Source of the DNA: Heteronotia binoei | Lineage: Eukaryota | NCBI RefSeq assembly: GCF_032191835.1 | Contig: NC_083237.1 | Span: 25,048,001 to 25,112,000 of the forward strand | Direction: 5' to 3' | Length of the DNA stretch: 64,000 nucleotides | Part shown: positions 51,001 to 63,000 of the stretch, in pieces | Layout: the number at the start of each line of letters is the position of its first letter | How positions within the stretch are numbered: the first letter of the stretch is position 1 | Position numbers: made by a program

Positions 51001-54000
51001 CAGCCCCCCTACTTCTGGAAGAGGCCTCTTGACTCTGGGGCCCCAACCAGCCCCTGGGGCCTCTGCCATGGTTCTAGGGCAGTGGAGAGGGGGAAAAGGT
51101 AAAAGTCGGATCTACACGGATCTTCATGAATTCATATGATTTTTACACTGAAATGAAATCAAACCACTTTAATCCTATAGATCCTGTCTTAGACTATAGG
51201 CAGGACCACAAAAATCATGCCTCCACGAATTCGTGGCGCCTCAGCAATGCAAAAACTGGCTTCCAAAGCACGGATCCTCATGAATTCATATGATTTTTAT
51301 GGAGAAATGAAATCAAACCACCATTATGTTGTAGATCCTGTCTTAGACTATAGGCAGCACCAGAAAAATCATGCCTCCACGAATTTGTGGCGCCATAGCA
51401 CTGAAAAAACATGTTTCCAAACCACGGATCCTCATGGATCCTCATGATTTTTGCTTTGGGCCACCCCAAGATAACCAGCCAATCACATATCATGTCCATG
51501 GGCAGATGTTGCACCACAGAAATCGTGGATCCACGTGTTCGTGGCAGCGCCAGGGACCAAAAACTTGCTTTTGGACCACGGATCCTCATGAATCCACATG
51601 ATTTTTGCCTTGGATCCCCCCAAGCCATCCATCCAGTCATATATCATGTCCATGGGCACAGTTTACACCACAGAAATCATGGATCCACGGCTTCGTGGCA
51701 GCGCCGGGGACCAAAAACTTGCTTTTGGACCACGGATCCTCATGGATCCACATGATTTTTGCCTTGGATCCCCCCAAGCCATCCATCCAGTCATATATTA
51801 TGTCCATGGGCACAGCTTACACCACAGAAATCATGGATCCACGGCTTCGTGGCAGCACCAGGGACCAGAACTTACTTTTGGACCACGGATCCTCATGGAT
51901 CCACATGATTTTTGCCTTGGATCCCCCCAAGCCGTCCATCCAGTCATATATCATGTCCATGGGCACAGTTTACACCACAGAAATCATGGATCCACGGCTT
52001 CGTGGCAGCGCCAGGGACCAAAAACTTGCTTTTGGACCACAGATCCTCTTGGATCCACATGATTTTTTACTTGGATCCCCCCAAGCCATCCATCCAGTCA
52101 TATATATGTCCATGGGCACAGTTTACACCACAGAAATCATGGATCCACGGCTTCGTGGCAGCGCCAGGGACCAAAAACTTGCTTTTGGACCACGGATCCT
52201 CATGGATCCACATGATTTTTGCCTTGGATCTCCCCCAAGCCGTCCATCCAGTCATATATTATGTCCATGGGCACAGCTTACACCACAGAAATCATGGATC
52301 CACGGCTTCGTGGCAGCGCCAGGGACCAAAAACTTGCTTTTGGACCACGGATCCTCATGGATCCACATGATTTTTGCCTTGGATCCCCCCAAGCCATCCA
52401 TCCAGTCATATATCATGTCCATGGGCACAGTTTACACCACAGAAATCATGGATCCACGGCTTCGTGGCAGCGCCAGGGACCAAAAACGTGCTTTTGGACC
52501 ACGGATCCTCATGGATCCACATGATTTTTGCCTTGGATCCCCCCAAGCCGTCCATCCAGTCATATATCATGTCCATGGGCACAGCTTACACCACAGAAAT
52601 CATGGATCCACGGCTTCGTGGCAGCGCCAGGGACCAAAAACTTGCTTTTGGACCACGGATCCTCATGGATCCACATGATTTTTGCCTTGGATCCCCCCAA
52701 GCCATCCATCAAGTCATATATCATGTCCATGGGCACAGTTTACACCACAAAAATCATGGATCCACGGCTTCGTGGCAGCGCCAGGGACCAAAAACGTGCT
52801 TTTCGACCACGGATCCTCATGGATCCACATGATTTTTGCCTTGGATCCCCCCAAGCCGTCCATCCAGTCATATATCATGTCCATGGGCACAGTTTACACC
52901 ACAGAAATCATGGATCCACGGCTTCATGGCAGCGCCAGGGACCAAAAACTTGCTTTTGGACCACGGATCCTCATGGATCCACATGATTTTTGCCTTGGAT
53001 CCCCCCAAGCCGTCCATCCAGTCATATATTATGTCCATGGGCACAGCTTACACCACAGAAATCATGGATCCACGGCTTCGTGGCAGCGCCAGGGACCAAA
53101 AACTTGCTTTTGGACCATGGATCCTCATGGATCCACATGATTTTTGCCTTGGATCCCCCCAAGCCATCCATCCAGTCATATATCATGTCCATGGGCACAG
53201 TTTACACCACAGAAATCATGGATCCACGGCTTCGTGGCAGCGCCAGGGACCAAAAACGTGCTTTTGGACCACGGATCCTCATGGATCCACATGATTTTTG
53301 CCTTGGATCCCCCCAAGCCATCCATCCAGTCATATATCATGTCCATGGGCACAGCTTACACCACAGAAATCATGGATCCACGGCTTCGTGGCAGTGCCAG
53401 GGACCAAAAACTTGCTTTTGGACCACGGATCCTCATGGATCCACATGATTTTTGCCTTGGATCCCCCCAAGCCATCCATCAAGTCATATATCATGTCCAT
53501 GGGCACAGTTTACACCACAGAAATCATGGATCCACGGCTTCGTGGCAGCTCCAGAAATCAAAAACTTGGTTATAAACCACGGATCCTCATGGATCCACGT
53601 GATTTCTGCTTCGGACCCCCCAAGCCCTCCACCCAGTCACATATCATGTCCATGGGCAGAGCTCTCACCACAGAAATCATGGATCCACGGCTTCGTGGCA
53701 GCGCTAGGGCCCAAAAACTTGCTTTTGGACCACGGATCCTCATGGATCCACATGATTTCTGCTTTGGATCCCCCAAGCCCTCAAACCAATCACATACCAT
53801 GTCCATGAGCAGAGTCTGCACCACAGAAATCGTGGATCCATGGCTTCGTGGCAGCGCCAGGGACCAAAAACTTGCTTTTGGACCACGGATCCTCATGGAT
53901 CCACGTGATTTTTGCTTCGAATCCCTCCAAGCCCTCCATCCAGTCACATATGATGTCCATGGGCACAGTTTACACCACAGAAATCATGGATCCATGGTTT

Positions 54001-60000: not shown

Positions 60001-63000
60001 CATGGACATAATATATCACTGGATGGTGGGCTTGGGGGAATCCAAAGCAGAAATCATGTGGATCCATGAGGATCCGTGGTCCAAAAGCAAGTTTTTGGTC
60101 CCTGGCGCTGCCACGAAGCCATGAATCCACGATTTCTGTGGTGCAAACTCTGCCCATGGACATGATATGTGACTGGATGGAGGGCTTGGGGGGATCCAAA
60201 GCAAAAAATCATGTGGATCCATGGGGATCCGTGGTCCAAAAGCAAGTTTTTGGTCCCTGGTGCTGCCACGAAGCTGTGGATCCATGATTTCTGTGGTGCA
60301 GACTCTGCCCATGGACATGATATGTGATTGAATTGAAGGCTTGGGGGGATCCGAAGCAAAAATCACATGGATCCATGAGGATCCGTAGTCCAAAATCAAG
60401 TTTTTGGTCCCTGGCGCTGCCACGAAGCCGTGGATCCACGATTTCTGTGGTACAGACTCTGGCCATAGACATGATATGTGACGGTACGGAGGGCTTGGGG
60501 GGATCCGAAGCAGAAATCAGGTGGATCCATGAGGATCCGTGGTCCAAAATCAAGTTTTTGGTCACTGGCGCTGCCACGAAGCCGTGGATCCATGATTTCT
60601 GTGGTGCAGACTCTGCCCATGGACATGATATGTGATTGAATTGAAGGCTTGGGGGGATCTGAAGCAGAAATCACGTGGATCCATGAGGATCCGTGGTCCA
60701 AAACCAAGTTTTTGGTCCCTGGCGCTGCCATGAAGCCGTGGATCCATGATTTCTGTGGTGTAAACTGTGCCCATGGACATGATAAGTGACTGGATGGAGG
60801 GCTTGGGGCGATTCGAAGCAAAAATCACGTGGATCCATGAGGATCCATGGTCCAGAAGCAAATTTTTGGTCCCTGGCACTACCACGAAGTTGTGGATCCA
60901 TGTTTTCTGTGGTGGAAACTGTGCCCATGGACATGCTATGTGACTGGATAGCAGGCTTAGGGGGATCCAAAGCAAAAATCATGTGGATCCATGAGGATCC
61001 GTGGACCAAAAGCAAGTTTTTGGTCCTTGGCGCTGCCACAAAGCTGTGGATCCATGATTTCTGTGGTGCAGACTCTGCCCATGGACATGGTATGTGATTG
61101 GATTGAGGGCTTGGGGGGATCCGAAGCAAAAATCACATGGATCTATGAGGATCCGTGGTCCAAAACCAAGTTTTTGGTCCCCGGCGCTGCCACGAAGCCG
61201 TGGATCCACGATTTCTGTGGTACAGACTCTTCTCATGGACATGATATGTGATTGGATGTAGGGCTTGGGGGGGATCCAAAGCAGAAATCATGTGGATTCA
61301 TGAGGATCCGTGGTTCAAAACCAAGTTTTTGATCCCTGGCGCTGCCACGAAACGGTGGATCCATGATTTCTGTGGTGTAAACTGTGCCCATGGACATGAT
61401 ATGTGACTGGATGGAGGGCTTGGGGGGATCCGAAGCAAAAATCACATGGATCCATGAGGATCCGTGGTCCAAAAGTAAGTTTTTGGTCCCTGGTGCTGCC
61501 ACGAAGCCGTGGATCCATGATTTCTGTGGTCCAACATCTGCCCATGGACATGATATGTGATTGGCTGGTTATCTTGTGGTGGCCCAAAGCAAAAATCATG
61601 AGGATCCATGGTTTGGAAACATGTTTTTTCAGTGCTGTGGCGCCACCAATTCGTGGAGGCATGATTTTTCTGGTGCTGCCTATAGTCTAAGAGAGGATCT
61701 ACAACATGATGGTGGTTTGATTTCATTTCACCATAAAAATCATATGAATTCATGAGGATCCGTGCTTTGGAAGCCAGTTTTTACACTGCTGAGGCGCCAC
61801 GAATTCGTGGAGGCATGATTTTTGTGGTCCTGCCTATAGTCTAAGACAGAATCTACAGGATTAAAGTGGTTTGATTTCATTTCAATGTAAAAATCATATG
61901 AATTCATGAAGATCCGTGTAGATCCGACTTTTACCCAGACCCGTGGAGAGGTCACTTCTGAGGTGCCAGGGGCATAAGCAGTCCCAGCCTCTGGCCTGAG
62001 TTAAAGAGCCTGCCGATCAGCTGTTTTGTGAGCCCTTTAACTTGAGTGGGCTGGGGTCCCCTTCTGCTGCCGGCCCTGCACGCTGTTTTAGTGGCAGGGA
62101 AGGGAGGGCTGTGGTGAGCTCATCGCTGCCCTCTTTCCCACCAGTGAAACAACGCATGGGCCGGCAGCAGAAGCAGCCCCCAGCCCCCTGCAAGTTAAGG
62201 GACCACGAAACAGCTGATCTGTGGGCCCTTTAACTGGTGCAGGGGCTGGGGGCTGCTTCTGATGCCGGCCCATGCGTTATTTCACTGGTGGGGAAGAGAG
62301 GGTGGTGTGAGCTCGCCACAGCCCTCCCTCCCCAGTCACTAAAACAGCGTGCAGGCGGACAGCACTTGTGGTGAGCAGGGGGAGCGCCATGCCAGCAGCA
62401 GGTGAGCAGAGTGAGGCAGCGGGGGTGGCGGGTGGCAGCAAGGGGCGAGCGGAGCACCGTGGCAGCGGCTGGGGTTATTGCCTGCCTAAGGCCCGTTCAC
62501 CCTGGAGCCGCTCCTGGCAGCAGAAGCAGCCCCCAGCCTCCCCTTCTACTTAAAGGGCCCATGGATCAGCTGTTTCAGGGGCCCTTAACTTGCATGGGGC
62601 CTGCTTCTGCTGCCGGCCCACGCGTTATTTTACTGGTAGGGAAAAGAGGGCAGTGGCGAACTCACCGCAGCCCTCCCTTCCCTGCCACTAAAACAGCAGG
62701 TGAGGTGGCAGCAGAAGCAGTCCCCAGCCCCTGCACAAGTTAAAAGGCCCGCGAAGCAGCTGCTCCAGGGGCCCTTTAACGCCCGGAAGCAAATTGGTTA
62801 GGGGAAGGGGAAGGGGAGGGGAGGGCGGTGGCAAGAGAGGCAGGCAGGGAGGGAGCAACTAGAGGGAAGATCGAAAACTGTAAATCCCCCCCCCCCCCAC
62901 CTTCCAAATCCTGGCGATGGACCTGCTTTACACCATCACCGCCATCTTGGAAAAGGGCATTCCCCCCTCAGAAGTCTTGAGAGAGACAGCCCTCTTGGAA

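What the first reader, a model, noticed from the sequence alone, without database searches (positions are those of the whole stretch)
51091..61942. Asymmetric, actively evolving arms: ordered outer units, a recent homogeneous expansion on the left, higher-order repeats on the right
Seen: the first three units at each end are distinct variants kept in mirror order. About 13 left-arm units (51580-53530) are nearly identical. The right arm is heterogeneous, with two-unit (~307-bp) duplications (57380-57690 vs 57690-57830; 58910-59220 vs 59220-59460) and an internal re-copy of the third terminal variant (~59680-59740). Units decay toward the centre on both sides (54540-54720, 56440-56900). Inference: the transposon is generating satellite DNA in place by slippage, unequal exchange or arm-to-arm conversion, and may be length-polymorphic.
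Basis: partly seen in the sequence, partly recalled or inferred. Interest (0 to 1): 0.65.

Follow-up and report, generated by a model that had tools for sequence, protein, structure and literature searches.

The report
Foldback transposon with unequal repeat arms
This is one 10.9-kb non-coding "foldback" DNA transposon whose two inverted arms are arrays of a 154-bp unit that have grown and shuffled independently, a pattern already known from insect and nematode foldback elements but rarely described in a vertebrate.

Summary
From 51091 to 61942 there are 59 copies of a 154-bp unit: 23 on the + strand (51115-54627) and 36 inverted (56461-61918). The three outermost units pair across the arms in mirror order (95-97% identity). 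L04-L16 (51577-53577) form a homogeneous block (mean 97.2%). The right arm is heterogeneous (mean 86.5%), with two 2-unit duplications and an internal copy of the third end variant (R15). The innermost units are the most decayed.

Corrections:
- The duplication coordinates were about 60-95 bp off.
- The left block has its own 5-unit periodicity.
- A second variant-3-like unit (R33) exists.
- Mirror order stops after unit 3.

A 9-bp direct repeat (GTGGAGAGG) flanks the element. No transposase is present in the element or in the ORFs scanned from the window.

Best reading: a non-autonomous foldback-like class II element, with a target duplication of Mutator/Phantom or Merlin size, whose arms changed by out-of-register exchange or slippage.

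"Making satellite DNA" is not shown. No unit occurs outside the element in the window, and no eukaryotic genome collection was available. Whether the changes happened at this locus is inferred, not demonstrated.

It is a new member of a known kind, of modest interest.

The parts
51082..51090 (.). Left copy of the 9-bp flanking direct repeat (putative target-site duplication), GTGGAGAGG
   Evidence: It is identical to 61943-61951. A same-offset 9-mer occurred in 64 of 200000 random junction pairs from the window. Homology is limited to these 9 bases.
51091..51097 (+). Left 7-bp end (GGGAAAA). Only GGG is shared with the right end, so the end is asymmetric and lies outside the perfect inverted repeat.
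   Evidence: there are four clustered mismatches at 51094-51097, followed by 50 matching bases.
51098..51114 (+). Left terminal inverted-repeat tip that precedes the first unit
   Evidence: perfect match to the reverse complement of 61919-61935.
51115..51576 (+). Left end units L01, L02 and L03. L01 and L02 are about 59% identical to the core unit; L03 is about 90%.
51577..53577 (+). Left homogeneous block L04-L16. It has 5-unit (770-bp) and 2-unit periodicity, and L16 is a chimeric unit.
   Evidence: The longest exact internal repeat is 201 bp at lag 770.
53578..54497 (+). Left inner heterogeneous units L17-L22
   Evidence: mean pairwise identity 0.877. Several have their closest relatives in the right arm (L20/R31, L22/R20, L19/R04 and R08).
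54498..54739 (+). Decayed inner left units: L23 (130 bp, with a 24-bp deletion) plus a vestige
   Evidence: The nhmmer hit at 54630-54739 has E = 0.0067.
54740..56460 (.). Non-repetitive middle domain with no transposase. It contains nested foreign repeats.
55291..55591 (-). LINE 3'-end fragment in minus orientation
   Evidence: 84% identical, inverted, to 55886-56189, and 84% identical to another copy at 39341-39415.
55645..56192 (+). LINE 3'-end fragment in plus orientation
   Evidence: the ORF at 55645-56070 matches the C-terminal part of the reverse-transcriptase ORF at 41215-42231 (E = 1e-18). That ORF carries RVT_1.
56218..56352 (.). Nested 135-bp palindromic MITE. Its ends begin CAGGGGTGGCC and it has its own 8-bp duplication, GTGTAGAA (56210-56217 and 56353-56360).
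   Evidence: the arms are 94% complementary. The hAT-like label is recalled, not tested.
56461..57007 (-). Decayed inner right units R33-R36. R35 is truncated to 85 bp and R33 is variant-3-like.
57008..61466 (-). Right-arm core units R04-R32, heterogeneous
   Evidence: mean identity 0.865. CpG-type columns (14 of 154) hold 99 of 387 substitutions.
57316..57925 (-). Two-unit duplication: R29-R30 and R27-R28
   Evidence: R27/R29 0.968 and R28/R30 0.960; clades at 100/98* and 99/86*; 293 of 307 columns identical.
58849..59462 (-). Two-unit duplication: R19-R20 and R17-R18
   Evidence: R18/R20 0.961 and R17/R19 0.922. R17+R19 at 98/95*; 289 of 307 columns identical.
59617..59770 (-). R15, the internal copy of end variant 3
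   Evidence: 0.896 identical to L03 and R03; sister to R03 at 99/80*.
61467..61918 (-). Right end units R03, R02 and R01. R03 lacks 10 bp.
61919..61942 (-). Right inverted-repeat tip (61919-61935) plus the asymmetric 7-bp end (61936-61942; GGGTCTG when read inward)
61943..61951 (.). Right copy of the 9-bp flanking direct repeat, GTGGAGAGG

Best explanation
The stretch 51091-61942 is a single, non-autonomous, foldback-like class II (cut-and-paste) transposon copy. It consists of a 9-bp target duplication, short asymmetric tips, two long inverted arms built throughout of a 154-bp unit, and a 1.7-kb non-coding middle that has since taken up LINE fragments and a small MITE.

The three outermost units are diverged versions of the same unit and are kept alike at the two ends. 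They are the likely recognition region for a transposase supplied in trans (inferred).

The inner arrays are not constrained in order. They evolve like any tandem array, through out-of-register sister or homologue exchange or replication slippage in steps of 1, 2 and 5 units. On the left this produced a young 13-unit block. On the right it produced older 2-unit duplications and displaced copies of the third variant. Point decay is enriched at CpG, and the array edges next to the middle domain are the least homogenised.

Shown: the anatomy, the positional structure and the duplication registers.
Inferred: mobility, that part of the turnover post-dates insertion at this locus, and the superfamily. 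By target-duplication size and end form, Mutator/Phantom-type foldback or Merlin is the best guess.
For: Anatomy:
- There are 154-bp arrays in inverted orientation.
- The ends 51091-51576 and the reverse complement of 61467-61942 are 455 of 476 identical.
- The 9-bp direct repeat sits exactly outside both ends. A same-offset 9-mer was found in 64 of 200000 random junction pairs.
- Homology between the flanks at the junction is limited to those 9 bases.

No coding capacity:
- None of the 4 element ORFs and none of the 176 of 218 outside ORFs (>=70 aa) that were scanned hit a transposase family.

L01 and L02 are true homologues of the core unit: nhmmer E = 8e-10 and 9e-9. The arms therefore grew out of end sequence.

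Registers of duplication:
- Right arm, lag 2: 59 of 10000 shuffles reached the observed value.
- Left block, lag 5: 29 of 10000. Lag 2: 250 of 10000.
- The sister pairs have tree support.
- The informative-site haplotypes of L08-L11 repeat in L13-L16.
- L16 is chimeric at the block edge.

Relative ages:
- Left-block pairs differ by 0-5.9% (mean 2.8%) and the two ends by 3.2-4.9%.
- The right-arm background differs by 13.5%.
- So the arrays were already heterogeneous when the ends last matched, and the left expansion is as young as or younger than that point.

CpG decay: 14 of 154 columns hold 99 of 387 right-arm substitutions.

Precedents read:
- Tetris: a foldback element with ~220-bp tandem repeats in its inverted ends, 8-10 bp target duplications, and stand-alone satellite-like arrays (PMC4079207, abstract and passages).
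- Galileo: different repeat numbers in the two ends of one copy (PMC3573991, passages).
- Tm1: a Mutator/foldback element with 9-bp duplications, ends of unequal length because repeat numbers differ, and asymmetric 7-bp motifs outside the inverted repeat (PMC3169594, passages and Discussion part 1).
Against: - Only one copy could be examined. No second copy, no solo end and no empty site exists in the window, so mobility is not demonstrated.
- The first 7 bases of the two ends match only at GGG. The boundary, and hence the 9-bp duplication, depends on accepting asymmetric tips.
- The duplication could also be read as 8 bp plus one chance base.
- Both flanks (50595-50830 and 61972-62800) carry the same local palindromic repeat family. 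A larger composite structure is therefore not excluded.
- TRF allowing periods up to 2000 reported no 308- or 770-bp period. The multi-unit patterns are local duplications, not array-wide higher-order repeats.
- The ends of one foldback element need not be identical at insertion; Tm1 ends average 93% identity. The timing argument for change 'in place' is therefore soft.
- GGATCC sites in the unit are barely more conserved than the rest (0.945 vs 0.913). This gives no clear sign of binding-site constraint in inner units.
Confidence: 0.68

Rival explanations
1. It is a foldback transposon, but the asymmetry and duplications were inherited from the progenitor copy or arose during transposition or gap repair. 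Nothing has changed at this locus since insertion.
For: - Right-arm background divergence (13.5%) far exceeds the divergence between the two ends (3.2-4.9%). Most of the heterogeneity is therefore older than the last time the ends matched.
- Different repeat numbers in the two ends are a family-level feature in Galileo and Tm1.
- With a single copy, there is no way here to date the insertion.
Against: - Some left-block pairs are identical or differ at a single position (L08/L13 1.0, L09/L14 0.994). The ends differ by 3-5%.
- If the ends matched at insertion, the last 5-unit duplication is younger than the insertion.
Confidence: 0.3
2. It is not a mobile element. It is a local palindrome made by inverted duplication of a satellite-bearing segment (for example fold-back repair), with later array turnover.
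For: - Only one copy is seen.
- The middle holds an inverted pair of LINE ends, 55291-55591 and 55886-56189.
- The flanks on both sides share a palindromic repeat family.
Against: - The symmetry ends sharply at defined tips that are bordered by a 9-bp direct repeat. Inverted duplication does not predict this.
- The two LINE ends are 84% identical, no closer than each is to an unrelated copy at 39341-39415 (84-88%). The rest of the middle has no inverted symmetry.
- L01-L03 are specialised end variants found only at the two tips, apart from the variant-3 copies.
Confidence: 0.1
3. The homogeneous block, or the unequal arm length, is an assembly artefact caused by collapse or over-expansion of near-identical units.
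For: - Near-identical tandem units are error-prone in assemblies.
- No reads could be examined.
Against: - The longest exact repeat inside L04-L16 is only 201 bp.
- Units carry 27 variable columns with an ordered 5-unit pattern and private changes.
- The arms differ in content, not just in length, unlike a chimeric fold-back read.
Confidence: 0.06

Closest known systems
Tetris, a foldback element of Drosophila virilis (PMC4079207)
   Same: - Non-autonomous, with long inverted ends.
[quoted passage not shown]
- The middle domain is non-coding.
- Target duplications are 8-10 bp.
   Different: - Tetris has a unique outer flanking domain of up to 866 bp and an inner domain. Here the arms are periodic almost from the tip (17 + 7 bp).
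- The arms here are far longer: 23 and 36 units, against inverted ends of at most 1,735 bp in Tetris.
- Tetris has documented stand-alone arrays, which were not testable here.
- There is no sequence relation, and the host is different (insect vs a vertebrate).
Tm1, a Mutator/Foldback (Phantom) family of root-knot nematodes (PMC3169594)
   Same: - 9-bp target duplications.
- The ends of one element have unequal length because tandem-repeat numbers differ.
- Asymmetric 7-bp motifs lie just inside the duplication and outside the inverted repeat.
   Different: - The Tm1 repeat unit is ~14 bp and its elements are 1-2.6 kb.
- Tm1 has an identified MULE/FLYWCH transposase copy. None was found here.
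Galileo, a P-superfamily foldback-like element of Drosophila (PMC3573991)
   Same: - Independent expansion and contraction of tandem repeats in the two ends of one copy.
- The longest ends occur in non-autonomous copies.
   Different: - Galileo has 7-bp duplications and 2-3 repeats of ~210 bp.
- It belongs to the P superfamily. A 9-bp duplication does not fit that.
Merlin superfamily (PMC8101967)
   Same: - 8- or 9-bp duplications, with ends starting 5'-GG.
- Some families carry internal tandem repeats of ~160 bp.
   Different: - Merlin inverted ends were described as 24-462 bp, not kilobases.
- No DDE_Tnp_IS1595 protein was seen here.

Membership tests
Foldback-like class II elements (a structural class) | Long terminal inverted arms made of tandem sub-repeats | tested here: met
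   23 + 36 units of 154 bp in inverted orientation. Long inverted-repeat pairs between the arms are 85-89% complementary.
Foldback-like class II elements (a structural class) | Short non-coding or variable middle domain | tested here: met
   The stretch 54740-56460 has no protein family hit other than LINE-tail similarity.
Foldback-like class II elements (a structural class) | Flanking target-site duplication | tested here: met
   9 of 9 bases match at symmetric positions. The chance rate is 64 of 200000.
Foldback-like class II elements (a structural class) | Several copies at unrelated sites (mobility) | not testable with these tools
   There are no other copies in the window. No eukaryotic genome collection was available.
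Mutator/MULE superfamily, including Phantom/foldback | 9-10 bp target duplication | tested here: met
   The definition comes from PMC3169594 and PMC4079207.
Mutator/MULE superfamily, including Phantom/foldback | MULE transposase in an autonomous relative with the same ends | not testable with these tools
   None was found among the 180 ORFs scanned from the window. The genome could not be searched. PMC6446971 doubts that MULEs exist in vertebrates.
Merlin superfamily | 8-9 bp duplication and 5'-GG termini | tested here: met
   both tips start GGG.
Merlin superfamily | DDE_Tnp_IS1595 transposase | not testable with these tools
   Not present in the window ORFs that were scanned.
hAT superfamily | 8-bp duplication and ends of the CAG/TAG type | tested here: not met
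   The repeat is 9 bp, or 8 bp if one base matches by chance. The tips start GGG. The nested MITE at 56218-56352 in the same locus shows the CAGGGG-type end with an 8-bp duplication. The hAT end and target consensus are recalled, not taken from a call.
Satellite DNA | Long head-to-tail arrays of one unit | tested here: met
   20.3 and 32.0 copies.
Satellite DNA | Stand-alone arrays, abundant in the genome, outside the transposon | not testable with these tools
   None in this window. Genome, reads and FISH were unavailable.
Higher-order repeat organisation | Multi-unit period with higher identity than neighbouring units | tested here: inconclusive
   Local 2-unit and 5-unit duplications are significant. 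TRF with periods up to 2000 calls only the 154-bp period.

The most novel reading that the evidence does not exclude
This is a copy of a Mutator/Phantom-type (or Merlin-type) foldback family living in an amniote genome. The Anolis survey and the MULE review that I read report no such superfamily for amniotes. On this reading the family was active recently enough to keep its 9-bp duplication intact, and its 154-bp arm unit is the seed of a genomic satellite.
Probability: 0.12. Interest if true: 0.6.

Novelty: new member of a known kind. Interest (0 to 1): 0.35.

Why it matters
If other copies and stand-alone arrays exist, this element would be a clean vertebrate example of a transposon arm turning into satellite DNA, with intermediate stages preserved in a single copy. 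The source superfamily would be one whose presence in vertebrates is disputed. Separately, a 10.9-kb near-palindrome about 2.5 kb from the nearest exon-like ORF in a gene-dense region is a likely site of structural polymorphism and of assembly error. As it stands, it is a well-resolved instance of dynamics already described for Foldback, Galileo, Tetris and Tm1.

Tried and rejected
- Empty-site test. Flanks joined in a script and compared with the rest of the window: the junction is not covered by any other copy, so the test is uninformative.
- Unit-by-unit collinearity of the arms beyond the ends. Mirror chain reached by 270 of 2000 shuffles and anti-mirror chain by 764 of 2000. For the inner left units alone the figures are 1152 and 1659 of 2000. 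No signal.
- Isolation by distance in the right-arm core. None: r = +0.05, with 6924 of 10000 shuffles as low.
- Arm-label clustering once the homogeneous block is removed. None: 1494 of 2000.
- Coding capacity of the long array ORFs (up to 358 aa). No Pfam family reached its cut-off. There was one sub-threshold hit (ETS_PEA3_N, 23.4 bits against a cut-off of 30). The ORFs appear to be a by-product of a unit that, by my reading of the sequence (not a call), has a single stop codon on that strand.
- GGATCC sites as conserved binding sites. The difference is only 0.945 vs 0.913.
- Rfam over the whole window. Only two tRNA hits, both far from the element.
- Literature. No paper held a 20-base stretch of the unit. 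None combined 'satellite DNA', '154 bp' and 'reptiles'. The search 'foldback' + 'transposon' + 'lizard' gave 4 papers, none of whose titles or abstract openings in the listing describe a lizard foldback element. PMC2927773 (Phantom) is not held.
- Collections not used. The bacterial/archaeal genome collection and the phage, plasmid and E. coli collections cannot hold a vertebrate repeat.

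
Full report
**What is there.**
TRF finds a 154-bp period at 51115-54543 and 56447-61918. A single-unit nhmmer search returned 63 hits. All lie between 51115 and 61918, plus-strand on the left and minus-strand on the right. A profile built from all units, and the 486-bp end sequence, find nothing in the remaining ~53 kb.

I tiled the arms into 23 left units (L01-L23, 51115-54627) and 36 right units (R01-R36, 61918 down to 56461). Units are numbered from the outside in, and right units are read as reverse complement. 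The arms measure 3.5 and 5.5 kb and are separated by a 1.7-kb middle (54740-56460). The window contains no N.

**Check of each claim.**
- End units. L01/R01 and L02/R02 are 96.8% identical and L03/R03 is 95.1%. L01 and L02 are about 86% identical to each other and about 59% to the core unit.
- Tree. A maximum-likelihood tree was built from 56 of the 59 units; L23, R35 and R36 were left out as truncated or too decayed. It pairs L01+R01 (96/86*) and L02+R02 (96/79), and places L03 with R03 and R15 (99/91*).
- Left block. L04-L15 average 97.2% (94.1-100%). L16 closes the block as a chimera: its 5' part is block-type and its 3' tail is a variant also seen in L21, R21, R22 and R24.
- Right arm. R04-R32 average 86.5%.
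- Two-unit duplications. The supporting clades are R27+R29 100/98*, R28+R30 99/86* and R17+R19 98/95*.
- Variant-3 copy. R15 (59617-59770) is the internal copy of variant 3. R33 (56854-57007) joins the same clade at 98/95*.
- Decay toward the centre. Identity to the core consensus falls to 0.75 in L23 and to 0.78-0.85 in R33-R36.

**Positional structure against chance.**
- Right arm. Units two apart are more alike than in shuffled orders (59 of 10000 shuffles reach the observed value). Lags 1, 3, 4 and 5 are not significant.
- Left block. Lag 5 is significant (29 of 10000) and so is lag 2 (250 of 10000). The five informative sites repeat in order in L08-L11 and L13-L16. Those four-unit stretches are 603 of 617 identical, against 590 of 617 and 591 of 616 at lags 6 and 4. 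The left arm is therefore not simply homogeneous.
- Results against a stronger reading. TRF allowing periods up to 2000 still reports only the 154-bp period. The right-arm core shows no isolation by distance. Beyond the three end units the arms are not collinear in either direction (270 and 764 of 2000 shuffles).
- Cross-arm sisters exist: L20+R31 at 99/93*, and L22 with R18 and R20 at 93/90. They occupy no consistent positions.

**Ends and flanks.**
The two ends (51091-51576 and the reverse complement of 61467-61942) are 455 of 476 identical, with a 10-bp deletion in R03. Four of the 21 mismatches are consecutive, at 51094-51097. The tips therefore read GGGAAAA and GGGTCTG before a perfect inverted repeat begins.

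Immediately outside both tips lies GTGGAGAGG (51082-51090 and 61943-61951). A same-offset 9-mer occurred in 64 of 200000 random junction pairs drawn from the window. Flank-to-flank homology at the junction is limited to those nine bases.

A mock empty site has no counterpart elsewhere in the window. Both flanks carry a local family of palindromic repeats (50595-50830 and 61972-62800) that is not seen in the other 50 kb.

**Content.**
- No transposase family was found. I scanned 4 ORFs inside the element and 176 of the 218 stop-to-stop ORFs of at least 70 aa outside it. The 42 shortest were not scanned.
- The array ORFs have no family hit above cut-off.
- The middle holds two LINE 3' ends in opposite orientation. 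They are 84% identical to each other, no closer than to a third copy at 39341-39415. One of them matches the tail of the reverse-transcriptase ORF at 41215-42231 (E = 1e-18).
- The middle also holds a 135-bp palindromic MITE with its own 8-bp duplication.
- Exon-like ORFs around the element hit Cir_N, TMC, MBOAT, tRNA-intron endonuclease and WD40. The element therefore sits in gene-dense DNA, about 2.5 kb from the nearest WD40-type ORF.
- I do not take the contig for human. The LINE tails look like the CR1 type of reptiles and birds, but that label is recalled and was not tested.

**How it most likely works.**
The anatomy matches foldback-type cut-and-paste elements.
- In Tetris, the inverted ends hold a variable number of ~220-bp repeats derived from end sequence. 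Target duplications are 8-10 bp, and the repeat also forms stand-alone arrays (PMC4079207, abstract and passages).
- In Galileo, the two ends of one copy carry different repeat numbers (PMC3573991, passages).
- In Tm1, a Mutator/foldback family, duplications are 9 bp and end lengths differ with repeat number. Asymmetric 7-bp motifs lie just inside the duplication and outside the inverted repeat (PMC3169594, passages and Discussion part 1). This is the same layout as here.
- Merlin also makes 8-9 bp duplications and starts 5'-GG (PMC8101967, passages).

I infer that the conserved outer units serve recognition by a transposase supplied in trans. The inner arrays drift by out-of-register exchange or slippage in steps of 1, 2 and 5 units. 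Point decay is enriched at CpG: 14 of 154 columns hold 99 of 387 right-arm changes.

Because L01 and L02 are diverged homologues of the core unit (E = 8e-10 and 9e-9), the arms probably grew out of end sequence rather than capturing a foreign satellite.

**Timing.**
The ends differ by 3.2-4.9%. The left block differs internally by 0-5.9% (mean 2.8%). The right-arm duplications differ by 3.2-7.8%. The right-arm background differs by 13.5%.

Most heterogeneity therefore pre-dates the last time the ends matched. The left expansion is of that age or younger, and its last 5-unit step is very young. This supports some turnover at this locus only if the ends matched at insertion, which is not guaranteed.

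The longest exact repeat in the block is 201 bp. This argues against a collapse artefact, but no reads were available.

**Novelty.**
The kind is known. For reptiles, my searches found no foldback element, no 154-bp satellite and no paper holding a stretch of the unit. The searched library does not hold most subscription-journal papers, and Repbase or Dfam could not be consulted.

The Anolis survey lists six DNA-transposon superfamilies, none of them with 9-bp duplications (PMC3014272, passages). A review doubts that MULEs exist in vertebrates (PMC6446971, passages). The superfamily of this element would therefore be the interesting point, and it is untestable here. Supplementary tables of these papers were closed and might list relevant families.

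**Verdict.**
This is a new member of a known kind, and interest is modest unless genome-wide data show mobility, a transposase, or derived satellites.

Noticed in passing
window 56210-56360: A 135-bp palindromic MITE (56218-56352, arms 94% complementary) is nested in the middle domain. Its ends begin CAGGGGTGGCC and it has an intact 8-bp duplication, GTGTAGAA. It looks hAT-type, but that label is recalled. It shows that a different cut-and-paste family inserted here after the middle domain existed.
   Followed up: partly
window 50595-50830 and 61972-62800: A local family of GC-rich palindromic repeats, with alternating inverted copies spaced about 190-350 bp, lies on both sides of the element and nowhere else in the window. 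The element may have landed inside this cluster, or the cluster may belong to a larger structure.
   Followed up: partly
window 55291-55591 and 55645-56192: Two 5'-truncated LINE 3' ends lie head-to-head in the middle domain. They are 84% identical to each other and 84-88% identical to a third copy at 39341-39415. One encodes a tail that matches the reverse-transcriptase ORF at 41215-42231.
   Followed up: partly
window 126-48582: The neighbourhood is gene-dense. Exon-like ORFs hit Cir_N (126-353, -), TMC (4426-4719, -), MBOAT (25681-29348, -), tRNA-intron endonuclease (44069-45430, +) and WD40 (46898-48582, -).
   Followed up: no
window 6785-6856 (+) and 47952-48023 (-): There are two Rfam tRNA matches, at 40.3 and 61.9 bits. 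They could be tRNA genes or the heads of tRNA-derived SINEs.
   Followed up: no
window 59771-61157: One unit variant recurs at R06, R09, R11 and R14 (a clade). Exact matches of 74-76 bp occur at lags of 308 and 771 bp. This hints at further multi-unit exchange in the outer right arm.
   Followed up: partly
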